Positions 4,101 through 18,725 of a stretch of 20,256 nucleotides of DNA are shown here, piece after piece. The translations under genes were made by a program, and so were the position numbers. Within the stretch, counting starts at the first letter, position 1. Each line of letters starts with the position of its first letter. The stretch comes from a virus (lineage: Duplodnaviria > Heunggongvirae > Uroviricota > Caudoviricetes), in IMG/VR virus record IMGVR_UViG_2671180606_000002; one strand, given 5' to 3'. Under the pieces are notes generated by a model, which saw only the letters and a list, made by a program, of their open reading frames with translations, was not told where the DNA came from and made no database searches.

Positions 4101-4442
4101 TTACTCCTTATGGGCACCGAACTTGTTACCGATGACCCTCATTGCCGCACCACGAATAGCATCAACACCAATCAGCCCCACCCCACCACCAATGGCAACA
4201 GAAAGTGATTTAGGCCATCCGACATACTCAAGCGCGGATGCAAAGGTCAGCGTCAGAGCACCACAAAGCAGAATCTCAAGCGTTTTTCGTTTCCAGCCGC
4301 CGCCACCGCCAAAATAGGCAATGCGCAAACCAGCCATAATAATTGACATAACCACTGCACCCAGCGGCGTATCTCCACGCCACCAACTTTGTAAGAGTTC
4401 CAGTAAGTCAGGCCAGGAATGAGGGGCATTGTGCATTTTCAT
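4101..4442 (-). CDS. Class I holin with dual-start (M-K-M) motif
   Basis: Three hydrophobic segments; immediately upstream of endolysin; ATG codons at 4442 and 4436 encode MKM as in lambda S107/S105; GGAGGTGA Shine-Dalgarno upstream; six-frame ORF extends to a GTG at 4451. Confidence 0.8.
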   Translation of the reverse strand: MKMHNAPHSWPDLLELLQSWWRGDTPLGAVVMSIIMAGLRIAYFGGGGGWKRKTLEILLCGALTLTFASALEYVGWPKSLSVAIGGGVGLIGVDAIRGAAMRVIGNKFGAHKE

Positions 4443-4535
4443 AAGCCTCACCTCCGAGAGTTCGGATGGTGCTAAGTGTAAGATTCAGGCTCTCAGGCTT
4501 GCTAACAAGAAGTCGAGGATGTTTCCGGAGCCTAA

Positions 4536-6123: not shown

Positions 6124-6410
6124 AAATAACCTTCCTTTCTCCAGATTTCTTGTGTGCGAAAAACACCTTCTGCATGCATCAGGCGTAATTCTTCTTTGGT
6201 GTAATCGCTGGTTTTTACCCGCCCGTCGATTAAATCGTGGCATGAGCTACAGGCAATCGCTGCCTGCATATCGTGTGGTTTTGTCGCTGTTCCGCACGTC
6301 CCCGCCAGCCTGTAATGCGCCAGCACAGAGGTTTCGGGATTGTGATTGCAGTAGCCAGGGATTCTGATCTGGCACATCTGGCCTTTAGCCGCTTTACGTA
6401 AATTCACCAT
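6120..6410 (-). CDS. YbcO-like phage protein (DUF1364, putative nuclease)
   Basis: 96-aa ORF with Cys-rich pattern LRKAAKGQMCQIRIPGYCNHNPETSVLAHYRL..GTATKPHD..ACSSCHD resembling DLP12 YbcO; translationally coupled on both sides. Confidence 0.8.
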   Translation of the reverse strand: MVNLRKAAKGQMCQIRIPGYCNHNPETSVLAHYRLAGTCGTATKPHDMQAAIACSSCHDLIDGRVKTSDYTKEELRLMHAEGVFRTQEIWRKEGYL

Positions 6411-7009
6411 TACGCAAACTCCAGTAGTTGTGCGGCCACATTTTCAACTTCCTCCTGAGAGGAGAATTTACGGAACAGAATCCAGTTCCACAGCACATTC
6501 AGAACAGATTTATAAACCTGCTGAAACTCGGTTTCGTCCATATTCGCAAACGCGATGGATTTCGCCCTGCGCCCACGGCTACCGTCCGGATAAATATGCT
6601 CGGTGTAAAATCCGGCCTGAATGGTTACCCACTCGCGGAAAGCCTCAAACGACTTTAGCAATGCCGTATCCCGAGTTCTGCGTGTCGCAACTGTATTTAG
6701 ATATTGCTCTGCGGCATCACTCAGGGCTGGTGTGTGTTCCCGACCAACTGATTCGCACAAGTAATCCACGAAACCAGACAGCAGTTCTCGTTCGCGAGGT
6801 GTGATCGCCCCACCGACCGGAGTCCAGTAATCGAATCCCAGTTGCAGGAGTTTGAAAAAACGCTTGTGGAATGCGTAGTTACGCACACGCTTAAAGTCTG
6901 CGTGTATCCACTCACCTATTTTGATTTGATGCAGAAAATCGCAACTCTCCGGCGTCGCCGGGAGAAGTAAACCAGAAGAGGTTTGTTTGACCAGTTGTAT
7001 ATGCGCCAT
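6410..7009 (-). CDS. Phage nin-region protein, DUF1367-like
   Basis: 199-aa ORF with ATG at 7009; one-nucleotide start/stop overlap with the YbcO-like gene; family assignment from memory of the conserved N-terminal LVKxxSGLLLPATPE block. Confidence 0.65.
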   Translation of the reverse strand: MAHIQLVKQTSSGLLLPATPESCDFLHQIKIGEWIHADFKRVRNYAFHKRFFKLLQLGFDYWTPVGGAITPRERELLSGFVDYLCESVGREHTPALSDAAEQYLNTVATRRTRDTALLKSFEAFREWVTIQAGFYTEHIYPDGSRGRRAKSIAFANMDETEFQQVYKSVLNVLWNWILFRKFSSQEEVENVAAQLLEFA

Positions 7010-7289
7010 TTCTCAATCTCTCGATGGCGCAGCGCAGCAGATGCCAGTTGTTCAGGCTGACGAATAAAGTATAAATAAACTGGCTATGGTGTAAAGCCCC
7101 ACATAGCATGAACAAACACTACATATCAAATAGCTGGTACAAGGATAGAAATACGACATTTATTATTAAAAACGATTAGATAAATTACATTTTAATGTTA
7201 TGCAAAAGTTCTTTTTTATCATAACATTTCAATAAAAGCATTACAGATGCAATCATCCCGTCATCATCAATTATTTAAGGTGGTTAAAC

Positions 7290-7376
7290 ATGGAAAATAA
7301 CAAGTTCGCACATCTCGCTCCTTTTTTATCCGTAATCCTTTTCGCTTGTTGTTTTATATGGGCATTATTTTTATAA
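7290..7376 (+). CDS. Candidate small hydrophobic peptide (28 aa) in the AT-rich spacer
   Basis: ATG at 7290 preceded by AAGGTGG; product MENNKFAHLAPFLSVILFACCFIWALFL has a charged N-terminus and one predicted transmembrane helix, the shape of small membrane proteins or type I toxins; no homology recognised. Confidence 0.3.
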   Translation: MENNKFAHLAPFLSVILFACCFIWALFL

Positions 7377-7450
7377 AGTAGCCACATGATAAGTTGCTGG
7401 AATCATATTTCCCACTCAAGTCATTAACATTTGATAAGATATATCTAAAA

Positions 7451-7509
7451 GGACACCTTTACATTATTTATGTGTATATAATTTATTTATATACACAGTA
7501 AAGGTATCC
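7451..7509. repeat. Long imperfect palindrome with a perfect 10-bp core inverted repeat (TGTGTATATA-N7-TATATACACA)
   Basis: Core arms at 7471..7480 and 7488..7497 are exact reverse complements; outer arms GGACACCTTTAC (7451..7462) and GTAAAGGTATCC (7498..7509) pair with one mismatch. Confidence 0.6.
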
Positions 7510-7776
7510 TGGGAAAATATTTATCGTTAAAAAATACATCATAAATAATTAAGCTGAAATTTCAGAACACAACTAATACACACAATAAGGTTCAGTAACA
7601 ATAATCTATGTGGACTACATCGAGATTTTTTGATTAAACTTTAATAACTTATTCCTAACACACAGAATGCATAAACTAAAAGTAAAACAAATAGTTATAC
7701 GAAAAACAACCATATTTATTATATCTTCTCCTCTAATCAACATATCAATTATGTGTTTCATAACAGCTTGACATAA

Positions 7777-7815
7777 CCCTCAAAAACACGCATTTATAAT
7801 GCATGTTTTTGAGGG
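7777..7815. promoter_or_regulatory. NsrR-box-like palindrome over the -10 and ribosome-binding region of the yeaR-like gene
   Basis: 17-bp inverted arms CCCTCAAAAACACGCAT / ATGCATGTTTTTGAGGG (one mismatch) around TTATA; core AACACGCATTT-A-TAATGCATGTT (7785..7807) matches my recalled 11-1-11 NsrR consensus with about 2 mismatches; TATAAT at 7795..7800; TTGACA at 7768..7773 is 21 bp upstream. Confidence 0.45.
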
Positions 7816-7822
7816 GGTGGTT

Positions 7823-8161
7823 ATGACACACAAGAGAATTCCTAAAGATTGGGTAATCAAACGCTCAACTCCGTTCTTCACAAAAGAGAACGTACCTTCA
7901 GCGTTATTAACACATCATAATACAGCAGCAGGTGTTTTTGGGCAGTTGTGCGTAATGGAAGGCACTGTAACATATTATGGTTTTACTGATGAGAATGCTA
8001 CTGAACCGGAGATAAAAGTAGTCATTAATGCTGGCGCTTTTGCAACAAGCCCACCACAATACTGGCACCGTGTTGAACTAAGCGATGATGCTCAGTTTAA
8101 TATTAACTTTTGGGTCGCTCCAGACTTCTCGGGCGAAAAAGTCTATAGCACCAAAAAATAG
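7823..8161 (+). CDS. YeaR-like protein (DUF1971, TehB N-terminal-like domain)
   Basis: 112-aa product from ATG at 7823 (GAGGGGGTGG Shine-Dalgarno); conserved blocks RSTPFF..P......H.T..G....L.V..G.V.Y.G..DE...EP.......AG.FA..PP..WH.......D..FNI.F.VAP align by eye to E. coli YeaR. Confidence 0.8.
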   Translation: MTHKRIPKDWVIKRSTPFFTKENVPSALLTHHNTAAGVFGQLCVMEGTVTYYGFTDENATEPEIKVVINAGAFATSPPQYWHRVELSDDAQFNINFWVAPDFSGEKVYSTKK

Positions 8162-8923: not shown

Positions 8924-11297
<2,374 letters not shown>

Positions 11298-18328: not shown

Positions 18329-18523
18329 ATGAGATATGACAATGTTAAACCATGTCCATTTTGTGGTTGTCCATCAGTAACGGTGAAAGCCATTTCAGGA
18401 TATTACCGAGCGAAGTGTAACGGATGCGAATCCCGAACCGGTTATGGTGGAAGTGAAAAAGAAGCACTCGAAAGATGGAATAAACGAACCACTGGAAATA
18501 ATAATGGAGGTGTTCATGTATAA
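18329..18523 (+). CDS. ralR: Restriction alleviation protein RalR (Lar-like)
   Basis: 64-aa Cys-rich product MRYDNVKPCPFCGCPSVTVKAISGYYRAKCNGCESRTGYGG...; start chosen at ATG 18329 to match RalR length. Confidence 0.8.
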   Translation: MRYDNVKPCPFCGCPSVTVKAISGYYRAKCNGCESRTGYGGSEKEALERWNKRTTGNNNGGVHV

Positions 18524-18725
18524 AATTACCGCCACTATTGAAAAGGAAGGTGGCACTCCTACTAACTGGACAAGATATTCAAAATCTAAACTAACGAAAT
18601 CAGAATGCGAAAAAATGCTCTCAGGTAAAAAAGAAGCAGGCGTTTCCAGAGAGCAGAAAGTAAAACTGATAAATTTTAATTGCGAGAAACTTCAGTCCTC
18701 GAGAATTGCATTGTATTCAAATTAA
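18516..18725 (+). CDS. ydaC: Rac prophage protein YdaC
   Basis: 69-aa product from ATG at 18516 with GGAGGTG Shine-Dalgarno (MYKITATIEKEGGTPTNWTRYSK...); overlaps ralR stop. Confidence 0.75.
   Translation: MYKITATIEKEGGTPTNWTRYSKSKLTKSECEKMLSGKKEAGVSREQKVKLINFNCEKLQSSRIALYSN

What the first reader, a model, noticed from the sequence alone, without database searches (positions are those of the whole stretch)
7280..7380. Small hydrophobic ORF with strong Shine-Dalgarno in otherwise non-coding AT-rich spacer
A 28-codon ORF (MENNKFAHLAPFLSVILFACCFIWALFL) has a near-ideal AAGGTGG ribosome-binding site and encodes a single predicted transmembrane helix with a polar N-terminus. This is the architecture of small membrane proteins and type I toxins, which prophages often carry and which annotation pipelines usually miss. 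No antisense RNA can be identified by eye.
Basis: seen in the sequence. Interest (0 to 1): 0.4.

Follow-up and report, generated by a model that had tools for sequence, protein, structure and literature searches.

The report
Conserved unannotated prophage membrane-peptide gene
The 28-codon reading frame is a real, evolutionarily maintained gene for a tiny membrane peptide, carried by Rac-type/lambdoid prophages in about a fifth of complete E. coli genomes and missed by annotation; whether it is a toxin is still open.

Summary
The ORF (7290-7376, +; MENNKFAHLAPFLSVILFACCFIWALFL) and its AAGGTGG ribosome-binding site are present as described, in an 811-bp unannotated AT-rich spacer of a Rac-type prophage. 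ORF length alone is unremarkable here; the comparative evidence is what counts. Related DNA occurs in 1175 of 5426 complete E. coli genomes. In 163 copies (17 DNA haplotypes, 13 peptides) the frame is always intact and always 28 codons. dN/dS is 0.17 in this frame and 0.8-1.5 in the others, apart from the wobble-sharing antisense frame (0.22, which contains stops). Variation is concentrated at third codon positions, and the ORF has no indels while its flanks do. With a near-invariant 48-nt upstream motif it forms a compact cassette of about 220 bp. The cassette recurs in an unrelated prophage context, and homology ends just after the stop codon. Beyond that point lies a variable slot holding hok/sok, IetAS, AbiL-like or SIR2 cargo. 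The peptide is predicted to be a single transmembrane helix. It matches no known protein or RNA family. I found no convincing antisense RNA or RBS-sequestering structure, so the "small membrane protein" reading is supported and the "type I toxin" reading is untested. I class it as a new family of a known kind, of moderate interest.

The parts
7290..7376 (+). 28-codon ORF plus TAA stop; peptide MENNKFAHLAPFLSVILFACCFIWALFL. It has a polar head (MENNK.(A/V)H) and a 20-residue hydrophobic tail that runs to the C-terminus. A Cys-Cys doublet and a Trp are present in all variants.
   Evidence: Intact and 28 codons in 163/163 copies. dN/dS is 0.17 in this frame only, and variable sites by codon position are 4/9/17. 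P(no disruption | neutral) <= 0.028 and the ORF has no indels. Hydropathy.
7277..7283 (+). Shine-Dalgarno AAGGTGG, 6 nt upstream of the ATG.
   Evidence: Duplex with the anti-SD is -8.4 kcal/mol. Other haplotypes have weaker sites (AAGGTGA -5.2, AAAGTGA -4.4, AAGGTAG -5.8, AAGGTAA -3.9) at the same position.
7158..7206 (.). Near-invariant ~48-nt AT-rich motif (TTATTATTAAAA.CG.TTAGATAAATTA.ATTTTAATGTTATGCAA), 85-130 nt upstream of the ATG. It is presumed to be the promoter/operator or the 5' end of the sORF transcript. It is more conserved than the ORF itself.
   Evidence: Diversity profile. Alignments A1 and A2. It is the only upstream segment retained in the foreign context L079. A scan for 19 nt of the motif returned loci that all carry the ORF, apart from one chance hit and two loci cut by contig ends. 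No consensus sigma-70 promoter could be assigned.
7194..7228 (+). Hairpin with arms AATGTTATG (7194-7202) and CATAACATT (7220-7228) and a 17-nt variable loop, inferred to lie in the 5' leader of the sORF mRNA.
   Evidence: Inverted repeat I5. It is recovered as the consensus helix by RNAalifold. In the 042-type and L079 sequences the arm changes give G.U or U.G pairs on the + strand but mismatches on the - strand (sequences). This rests on only two such changes, so the evidence is weak.
7207..7276 (+). Poorly conserved leader/spacer between the motif and the SD, with indels among haplotypes.
7377..7380 (.). Right-hand homology breakpoint. Similarity between different genomic contexts stops within a few bases of the stop codon, and the variable cargo slot starts here.
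   Evidence: blastn matches to diverged copies end at query position 148, which is window position 7377. Alignments. Seven different right-flank classes against three left-flank classes.
7364..7392 (-). Weak promoter-like site (TTATCA-17-AATAAT, 9/12) pointing antisense into the ORF. It is the only candidate start for a cis-antisense RNA and is not established.
   Evidence: A TTATC(T/A)-17-AATAAT match recurs at the same place in most haplotypes. The -10 lies in constrained codons, the count of such sites is no higher than in shuffled sequence, and no terminator follows.

Best explanation
Window 7158-7376 is a compact, self-contained gene cassette of Rac-type/lambdoid prophages of E. coli and Shigella, of the kind called a moron. 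It consists of a conserved AT-rich control motif, a variable leader of about 85 nt with a small hairpin, a Shine-Dalgarno site and a 28-codon ORF. The ORF is translated into a 28-residue peptide. Its short polar N-terminus (MENNK.(A/V)H) is inferred to stay in the cytoplasm, and its 20 hydrophobic C-terminal residues (with a conserved Cys-Cys doublet and a Trp) are inferred to span the inner membrane as a single helix. The gene points opposite to the phage early-right operon (replication genes, then ninB and Q). It is therefore most likely expressed from the resident prophage, and antisense read-through would silence it during lytic growth. It marks the fixed edge of a variable slot that carries TA and anti-phage cargo. 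I think it most likely acts inside the membrane as a small modulator or perturbing peptide that benefits the lysogen, for example by exclusion of incoming phage or modulation of a membrane protein, without a dedicated RNA antitoxin. What is shown: the ORF exists, it is under selection as a protein, its peptide is strongly hydrophobic, its cassette moves between contexts, and it has no known relatives. What is inferred: translation, membrane topology, timing of expression and the activity of the peptide.
For: Distribution: matches in 1175 of 5426 complete E. coli genomes. Diverged copies (~80% nt identity) match from the RBS to the stop codon.
Integrity: 163/163 copies are intact and 28 codons long, with 17 DNA haplotypes and 13 peptides. 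Loci retrieved through the upstream motif alone also all carry the ORF.
Selection: pS 0.43 against pN 0.10, ratio 0.17, in the ORF frame. The other frames give 0.78-1.50. The wobble-sharing antisense frame gives 0.22 but contains stops. Fisher p ranges from 2e-3 to 8e-6 for three pairs. Variable sites by codon position are 4/9/17.
No damage: a tenth of possible point changes would disrupt the ORF, yet none is seen across at least 34 substitution events (P <= 0.028). Only one alignment column across SD+ORF has a gap (at the boundary, just past the stop), against 21 upstream and 8 downstream.
Diversity trough: diversity falls over SD+ORF, to 0.03-0.13 against 0.19-0.33 in the flanks.
Mobility: in L079 (next to tail-fibre genes; its surroundings are only ~78-80% identical to any E. 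coli genome) only the 48-nt motif, the SD and the ORF are conserved. The ORF there carries many synonymous changes but the peptide is nearly unchanged.
Terminator: in other contexts a GC hairpin follows the stop by ~20 nt and is scored terminator-like on the + strand in the M18 type.
Membrane propensity: KD 2.3-2.5 over residues 9-28 and a negative summed insertion energy in all variants.
Antisense ORFs fall in different frames in different haplotypes, so they are not the conserved feature.
Against: No expression data of any kind were available. No consensus sigma-70 promoter reads into the ORF in the window type; the best candidate (TTGCTG-16-TATTAT, 8/12) exists only in the majority type. 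The window type has no obvious terminator after the ORF. The SD is weaker in the commonest haplotype (AAAGTGA). The diversity sampled is shallow: it is mostly E. coli prophages, the haplotypes are related and recombining, and pairwise tests are not independent. Two more degenerate scans found no relatives outside this narrow group, and the phage and plasmid collections gave only E. coli hits. The proposed activity (modulator or exclusion factor rather than toxin) rests on the absence of evidence for an antitoxin, not on positive evidence.
Confidence: 0.6

Rival explanations
1. It is the toxin of a new type I toxin-antitoxin module. On this reading the peptide depolarises or permeabilises the inner membrane. 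Its translation would normally be held down by an antisense RNA, either a cis-antisense transcript starting at the promoter-like site just past the stop codon (7392-7364, -) or one starting at the site overlapping the start codon and running through the leader.
For: The size, hydrophobicity and single TM segment fit the general definition of membrane-associated type I toxins (PMC8309996). The polar head with a hydrophobic tail reaching the C-terminus resembles IbsC and ShoB, which also lack C-terminal cationic residues (PMC8309996). Cysteines are noted in several toxins as possible oligomerisation sites. Promoter-like matches recur on the minus strand at two fixed positions across diverged haplotypes: TTATC(T/A)-17-AATAAT, and TTTCCA-16-TATGAT or CATAAT. 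A 5-bp stem in the 48-nt motif keeps pairing on the minus strand through changes on both sides in L079 and the window type (sequences). In most genomes the ORF sits next to hok/sok and in a slot rich in TA and defence genes.
Against: The promoter-like sites score 8-9/12 in 27-29% G+C DNA and are no more numerous than in shuffles. Their hexamers overlap the start codon, the SD-proximal bases or constrained codons, so their conservation has another explanation. The only terminator-like element for such an RNA is the 5-bp stem, which has no U-tail in L079. There is no Rfam hit. Neither strand folds significantly (z -0.5 and -0.1) and the consensus structures are weak. The SD is not clearly sequestered (P unpaired 0.33-0.59) and is strong in the window type, which is unlike typical toxin mRNAs. 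There is no sequence similarity to Hok, Ldr, Ibs, TisB, ShoB or other families in Pfam, NCBIfam or PHROGs. The cassette is not tandemly duplicated (median 1 and at most 2 places per genome).
Confidence: 0.25
2. The ORF is not translated. On this reading the conservation reflects a cis-acting DNA or RNA element at the start of the nin region, such as a promoter/operator, a terminator or a small RNA, and the open frame is incidental.
For: The whole ~370 bp from ninB to the stop codon is alignable between contexts. Two non-coding blocks are at least as conserved as the ORF: the 48-nt motif, and a TTTACA-16-TATACT promoter-like site next to ninB. No expression evidence exists.
Against: Frame-specific excess of synonymous change and third-position bias. 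No stops or indels across all copies while the flanks carry indels. In L079 the ORF keeps its peptide despite many silent changes, while the surrounding leader has diverged. There is no significant RNA structure and no Rfam match.
Confidence: 0.1
3. It is a leader peptide or upstream ORF that controls a downstream gene, here the TehB-family gene at 7823, by attenuation or translational coupling.
For: It is a short ORF upstream of a same-strand gene. There is a sub-threshold resemblance to a Phe leader in one relative (E 0.69).
Against: Homology ends at the stop codon, and the downstream neighbour differs between genomes and is usually convergent: hokD, iteS, AbiL-like genes, an IS element. The TehB-family gene lies 447 nt away and has its own promoter-like elements and palindrome. 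The ORF contains no run of regulatory codons.
Confidence: 0.02
4. It is a lipoprotein signal peptide (lipobox LFA|C) that yields a tiny lipopeptide, or it is the remnant of a lipoprotein gene.
For: There are weak hits to lipoprotein or o-spanin signal regions (NCBIfam Lp6.6 E 0.03; PHROG Rz-like spanin E 0.24). The window variant reads L-F-A-C.
Against: These hits are far below the family thresholds. Most variants read V-L-C-C or V-F-C-C, with Leu or Phe at position -1, which does not fit the lipobox. The mature product would be only 8-9 hydrophobic residues. The ORF has a fixed 28-codon length and a conserved stop, so it is not a truncated gene.
Confidence: 0.03

Closest known systems
IbsC / ShoB (E. 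coli type I toxins of the ibs-sib and shoB-ohsC modules)
   Same: They are very short (19 and 26 aa) hydrophobic peptides with a short polar N-terminus and a hydrophobic stretch that runs to the C-terminus without C-terminal cationic residues (PMC8309996). They are encoded in intergenic regions and are routinely missed by gene callers.
   Different: There is no sequence similarity. No Sib- or OhsC-like RNA was detectable. The ORF is not in tandem repeats, it sits on a prophage rather than in the core genome, it has a strong exposed SD in the window type, and toxicity is untested.
hokD/sok and hokW/sokW of lambdoid prophages
   Same: They occupy the same neighbourhood: in most carriers hokD lies about 100 nt beyond the sORF stop, convergently oriented. 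Both encode small membrane peptides carried by prophages.
   Different: Hok is ~50 aa and has the mok/sok/fbi mRNA architecture and an Rfam-recognisable sok. The sORF is independent of hok: it is present without hok in the window, in the M18 type, and in L150, L128 and L079. It has none of those RNA features.
Small inner-membrane regulatory proteins of E. coli (for example MgrB, AcrZ, MgtS, CydX; recalled from my own knowledge)
   Same: They are single TM helices of about 30-50 aa or fewer, found only by dedicated searches, that act by binding larger membrane proteins. The sORF has the same general architecture and the same annotation blind spot.
   Different: Those are core-genome genes with known partners. 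This one is prophage-borne, is absent from K-12, and has no known partner and no homology to them.
Lambdoid 'morons' (autonomous extra genes with their own promoter and terminator inserted between phage genes; concept recalled from my own knowledge)
   Same: It is a compact unit oriented against the flanking operon. It is bounded by sharp homology breaks, it occurs in two unrelated phage positions (upstream of the nin region, and near tail-fibre genes in L079), it is AT-rich, and it is followed by a hairpin in most contexts.
   Different: The promoter is not identified and the window type lacks a clear terminator. At ~220 bp it is far smaller than typical morons.

Membership tests
Membrane-associated type I toxin (type I TA system) | Peptide under 60 aa, hydrophobic, with a putative alpha-helical TM domain (PMC8309996) | tested here: met
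   28 aa; KD 2.3-2.5 over residues 9-28; negative summed insertion energy in all six variants tested.
Membrane-associated type I toxin (type I TA system) | A cis- or trans-encoded antisense RNA antitoxin that pairs with the toxin mRNA | tested here: inconclusive
   There are only 8-9/12 promoter-like sites on the minus strand, at chance frequency. No convincing terminator, no Rfam hit, and no significant or conserved fold. A real test needs strand-specific RNA data.
Membrane-associated type I toxin (type I TA system) | mRNA elements that sequester the RBS or make the primary transcript translationally inert | tested here: inconclusive
   The TSS is unknown. With assumed 5' ends the SD is 33-59% unpaired and no sequestering helix is shared by the three types. 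Fold z-score is -0.5.
Membrane-associated type I toxin (type I TA system) | Growth arrest or membrane damage on overexpression, relieved by the RNA | not testable with these tools
   This requires an experiment.
Known toxin families (Hok/Gef, Ldr, Ibs, TisB, ShoB, DinQ, ZorO and others) and any other Pfam/NCBIfam/PHROG family | Significant match to the family profile | tested here: not met
   No hit reached any curated cut-off. The best were E 0.03 to a Borrelia lipoprotein signal region and E 0.1-0.2 to unrelated models.
Bacterial lipoprotein (Lsp-processed signal peptide) | Conserved lipobox [LVI][ASTVI][GAS]C | tested here: not met
   The window variant LFAC fits loosely. The majority variants VLCC, VFCC and VSCC mostly have a disallowed residue at -1.
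Leader peptide / attenuator | Constant linkage to a regulated downstream gene | tested here: not met
   Seven unrelated right-flank classes, and homology ends at the stop codon.
Phage moron (autonomous inserted transcription unit) | Same unit found in different phage positions with sharp homology boundaries | tested here: met
   The window, 042 and M18 types lie upstream of the nin region; L079 lies next to tail-fibre genes and retains only the motif, SD and ORF.
Phage moron (autonomous inserted transcription unit) | Own promoter and terminator | tested here: inconclusive
   A terminator-like hairpin is present after the ORF in the M18 type and a GC hairpin in the hokD types, but none in the window. 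No promoter could be assigned.

The most novel reading that the evidence does not exclude
The cassette encodes a previously unrecognised family of prophage membrane effectors. It would be either the toxin of a new type I TA family or a minimal 28-residue superinfection-exclusion or abortive-infection peptide. It would be a fixed component of the nin-proximal defence hotspot of Rac-type/lambdoid prophages and would be controlled through the near-invariant 48-nt motif.
Probability: 0.3. Interest if true: 0.65.

Novelty: new member of a known kind. Interest (0 to 1): 0.45.

Why it matters
This is a protein-coding gene present in about 22% of complete E. coli genomes. It is absent from RefSeq annotation, from a 15-billion-protein collection and from Pfam, NCBIfam and PHROGs. 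The K-12 and BL21 prophage regions I checked lack it (Qin and DLP12 of K-12, Rac of BL21), which may explain why K-12-centred small-protein work has not reported it. It lies exactly at the fixed border of a prophage slot that swaps hok/sok, IetAS, AbiL-like and SIR2-type cargo. That makes it a practical landmark for mining this hotspot, and a candidate participant in lysogen protection or prophage maintenance. If it proves toxic, it adds a new E. coli type I toxin family. If it does not, it adds a new prophage small membrane protein whose partner could be sought.

Tried and rejected
The structure-prediction and representative-search tools also need at least 30 aa, so I did not use them.
- Exact look-up of four variants in the protein collection found none.
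- Pfam, NCBIfam and PHROGs gave nothing above noise.
- Rfam at gathering and at permissive thresholds found nothing at the locus. It found only RalA elsewhere in the window and sok next door in a relative.
- tblastn of the peptide against phage and plasmid collections returned only E. coli records, all unannotated at the site.
- The species-representative genome scan returned only one Shigella flexneri hit.
- Two degenerate scans built to exclude the known haplotypes found no credible distant relatives. L177 is a chance hit, and L178 is a 23-aa hydrophobic ORF whose similarity was forced by the pattern.
- I looked for the ORF in strains with abundant public expression data. The K-12 Qin region has rem in its place, K-12 DLP12 has only the co-oriented ylcH, BL21(DE3) Rac lacks the ninB-Q segment, and Sakai Sp5 lacks both the ORF and the motif.
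- Literature searches by peptide string and by topic found no description.
- Antisense ORFs overlapping the sORF (38 aa in the window, 57-58 aa in relatives) were rejected as the conserved feature, because they are in different frames in different haplotypes and are interrupted in others.
- Direct repeats that could mark a trans-acting RNA pairing site were found only as a 10-nt repeat specific to the window type.

Full report
**Observation**

The window carries an ATG at 7290 and a TAA at 7374-7376. The 28 codons between them translate to MENNKFAHLAPFLSVILFACCFIWALFL. AAGGTGG lies at 7277-7283, 6 nt before the ATG. The nearest in-frame upstream stop is at 7233, and no alternative start lies between it and the ATG. 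The ORF sits in an 811-bp stretch (7010-7822) of 27-29% G+C.

ORF length alone is unremarkable. The same spacer contains about ten ORFs of 20-48 codons on the two strands, and T-rich DNA tends to encode hydrophobic residues.

**Setting**

The window is a Rac-type lambdoid prophage of E. coli:
- Rfam finds the RalA antitoxin RNA at 18522-18700.
- Identical RefSeq genomes annotate trkG, lysis genes, a DUF1133 Q-like protein, DUF1364 and a DUF1367 NinB-like gene (window 6410-7009, minus strand).
- The unannotated spacer follows.
- After it come a TehB-family gene (7823, plus strand), a SIR2 / ITPase-like / amidohydrolase operon (minus strand), a TetR gene, ydaF, sieB and kil, next to ttcA.

The replication genes, ninB and Q all read on the minus strand, so the small ORF points against the early-right operon. 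No record annotates anything at the ORF. This holds for RefSeq genomes and for deposited phage genomes. The exact peptide, and three of its variants, are absent from a 15-billion-protein collection.

**Conservation**

A sensitive blastn with 191 nt around the ORF matches 1175 of 5426 complete E. coli genomes. In the diverged copies (~80% identity) the matched segment runs from just before the RBS to query position 148, one base past the stop codon.

Three such copies were read in full: E. coli 042, APEC O1 and M18. They encode MENNKSAHYAPFLSVILFVLCCAWALFL and close variants, each 28 residues long.

Scans of IMG/VR were run with a pattern from the ORF's N-terminus and, independently, with 19 nt of an upstream motif. 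Together with the E. coli loci they gave 163 copies. Every copy has an intact 28-codon frame. There are 17 DNA haplotypes and 13 peptides. Loci recovered through the upstream motif alone, which carries no bias toward an open frame, all have the ORF. The exceptions are one chance hit (L171) and two loci cut by contig ends.

**Evidence that it is coding**

| Test | Result |
|---|---|
| Substitution pattern in the ORF frame (five representative haplotypes) | pS 0.43, pN 0.10, ratio 0.17 |
| Same in the other frames | 0.78-1.50 |
| Same in the antisense frame that shares wobble positions | 0.22, but this frame contains stops |
| Variable sites by codon position 1/2/3 | 4 / 9 / 17 |
| Fisher tests on three divergent pairs | p = 2e-3, 2e-4 and 8e-6 (pairs not independent) |
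| Share of possible point changes that would destroy the start, the stop or the frame | about one tenth |
| Disruptions seen across at least 34 substitution events | none (P <= 0.028 under neutrality) |
| Alignment columns with a gap | 1 across SD+ORF; 21 upstream; 8 downstream |
| Pairwise diversity per site | 0.03-0.13 over SD+ORF; 0.19-0.33 either side |

The antisense ORFs that overlap the sORF fall in different frames in different haplotypes, so they are not what is being preserved. I conclude that the amino-acid sequence is under purifying selection.

**The unit**

Alignments show three conserved islands between ninB and the stop codon:
- a ninB-proximal block containing TTTACA-16-TATACT on the minus strand, present in 74 of 75 haplotypes;
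- a near-invariant ~48-nt AT-rich motif (window 7158-7206);
- the SD plus ORF.

One IMG/VR contig, L079, is decisive. There the ORF lies beside tail-fibre genes, in DNA that is only ~78-80% identical to any E. coli genome. Only the 48-nt motif, the SD and the ORF are retained. The leader between them has diverged, and homology stops immediately left of the motif and right of the stop codon. The L079 ORF carries many silent changes, yet its peptide is MENNKSAHYAPFLSIILFVCCFIWALFL.

So the motif, leader, SD and ORF (about 220 bp in the window) behave as one mobile cassette.

A 9-bp hairpin (7194-7202 / 7220-7228) in the leader is recovered as a consensus helix. Its arm changes in other types give G.U pairs only on the plus strand, which hints that the transcript starts within or left of the motif. 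This rests on two changes only.

No consensus sigma-70 promoter could be assigned in the window type. The best candidate, TTGCTG-16-TATTAT, scores 8/12 and exists only in the majority type.

In most other contexts a GC hairpin (AAACCCGC-N4-GCGGGTTT) follows the stop by ~20 nt. It scores as a plus-strand terminator in the M18 type and as a minus-strand terminator after hokD. The window type has none.

**The neighbourhood**

To the left there are three flank classes; to the right there are seven. The cargo immediately after the stop codon is:
- hokD with sok;
- IetAS, annotated iteA/iteS;
- an AbiL-like pair, in L150;
- a restriction-like protein, in L128;
- an IS element, in L130;
- in the window, the TehB-family gene and the SIR2 / ITPase-like / deaminase-like operon.

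The sORF therefore marks the fixed edge of a TA and defence hotspot that lies between the replication genes and the nin region.

**The peptide**

Residues 9-28 have mean hydropathy 2.3-2.5 and a negative summed insertion energy in all six variants tested. The head MENNK, together with H8, P11, L13, S14, I16, L17, F18, C21, W24, A25, F27 and L28, is invariant in the sample (F12 changes in a single copy). A Cys-Cys doublet is always present but shifts by one position between types. The peptide is very likely a single membrane-spanning helix.

**Is it a type I toxin?**

The general features fit: it is small, hydrophobic, has one TM segment, and like IbsC and ShoB has no C-terminal cationic residues (PMC8309996). 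None of the features specific to a type I module could be shown:
- The minus-strand promoter-like sites score 8-9/12 in very AT-rich DNA and are as frequent as in shuffles. They overlap bases that are constrained for other reasons.
- No credible terminator for an antisense RNA exists.
- No Rfam family matches.
- Neither strand folds better than shuffled sequence, with z of -0.5 and -0.1.
- Consensus structures are weak.
- With assumed 5' ends, the SD is 33-59% unpaired and no shared sequestering helix appears.
- No toxin family profile matches.

A 5-bp stem inside the 48-nt motif keeps its pairing on the minus strand through changes on both sides. I could not explain this, and I record it as weak evidence for a minus-strand RNA element. 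The toxin reading stays open at about one in four.

**Other readings**

- A leader peptide is excluded by the variable, mostly convergent downstream genes.
- A lipoprotein signal is excluded because the lipobox is not conserved.
- A purely non-coding element is unlikely given the frame-specific substitution pattern.

**Distribution and prior knowledge**

The cassette was not found outside Escherichia and Shigella, apart from L079, whose host is not known. It is absent from the prophage regions I checked in K-12 (Qin, DLP12), BL21(DE3) (Rac) and Sakai (Sp5). Literature searches by sequence and by topic found no description.

**Verdict**

This is a real, unannotated small-protein gene. It is a new family of a known kind: a prophage-borne small membrane peptide with moron-like organisation. 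Interest is moderate. Small membrane proteins are a recognised class, but this one is common in E. coli genomes, under selection, anchors a defence hotspot, and can be tested directly.

Noticed in passing
window 8924-11297 (-): A three-gene operon. It encodes an amidohydrolase whose C-terminal part matches the adenosine-deaminase domain of CARF-ADA defence proteins (E 7e-36) but has no CARF part. It also encodes an ITPase-like non-canonical purine NTP pyrophosphatase with no PADLOC hit, and a 264-aa SIR2 protein that matches the ThsA SIR2 domain (E 9e-32) and has no SLOG domain. The operon sits in the same prophage slot that holds IetAS, AbiL-like or hok/sok cargo elsewhere, so it is a candidate anti-phage island of unclear type.
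   Followed up: partly
window 7768-7822: An 18+18-nt palindrome, 94% complementary (7777-7794 / 7798-7815, 3-nt loop). It overlaps TTGACA (7768) - 21 nt - TATAAT (7795) and the GAGGGGG ribosome-binding site of the TehB-family gene at 7823. It looks like an operator or translational hairpin. The overlong 21-nt spacer recalls MerR-type promoters, and a TetR-family gene lies at about 11464.
   Followed up: no
window 7068-7095 (-): A strong promoter-like site, TTTACA-16-TATACT (10/12), about 50 nt upstream of the NinB-like DUF1367 gene. It is conserved in 74 of 75 haplotypes but absent from the L079 cassette. An internal promoter feeding the ninB-Q operon would be unexpected for a lambdoid phage.
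   Followed up: partly
slot immediately right of the sORF stop: L002/L003 ~4130-4450; L004 4167-7560; L150 454-2185; L128 7930-8829; L130: A variable cargo slot between the replication genes and the nin region of Rac-type/lambdoid prophages. It holds hokD/sok, IetAS (iteA/iteS), an AbiLi/AbiLii-like pair, a restriction-like protein or an IS element. This is a prophage defence/TA hotspot with the sORF as its fixed border.
   Followed up: partly
L004 4126-4159; L003 4131-4144: A GC hairpin (AAACCCGC-N4-GCGGGTTT) about 20 nt after the sORF stop in non-window contexts. It scores as a terminator on the plus strand in the M18 type and on the minus strand after hokD, so it is probably a bidirectional terminator between convergent genes. 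It is missing in the window type.
   Followed up: partly
window 7165-7182 and homologous positions in L002-L004 and L079: Inside the near-invariant 48-nt motif, a 5-bp stem reads CGCTT/AAGCG in most types, CACTT/AAGTG in L079, and CGTTT/AAATG (minus-strand reading) in the window. It keeps its pairing through changes on both sides, with a G.U pair possible only on the minus strand. The tool calls it terminator-like on the minus strand in L003 and L004. Its meaning is unexplained.
   Followed up: partly
window 18444-18725: The RalR/RalA type I toxin-antitoxin locus of Rac is present. RalA scores 225 bits at 18522-18700 on the minus strand.
   Followed up: no
L178 3021-3092 (+): A 23-codon hydrophobic ORF (MQILNEIFTSILFVAIILWAVFL) in an unrelated IMG/VR contig has the same C-terminal ...W-A-V-F-L-stop. 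It was found with a pattern that forced this similarity, so it is probably coincidental.
   Followed up: no
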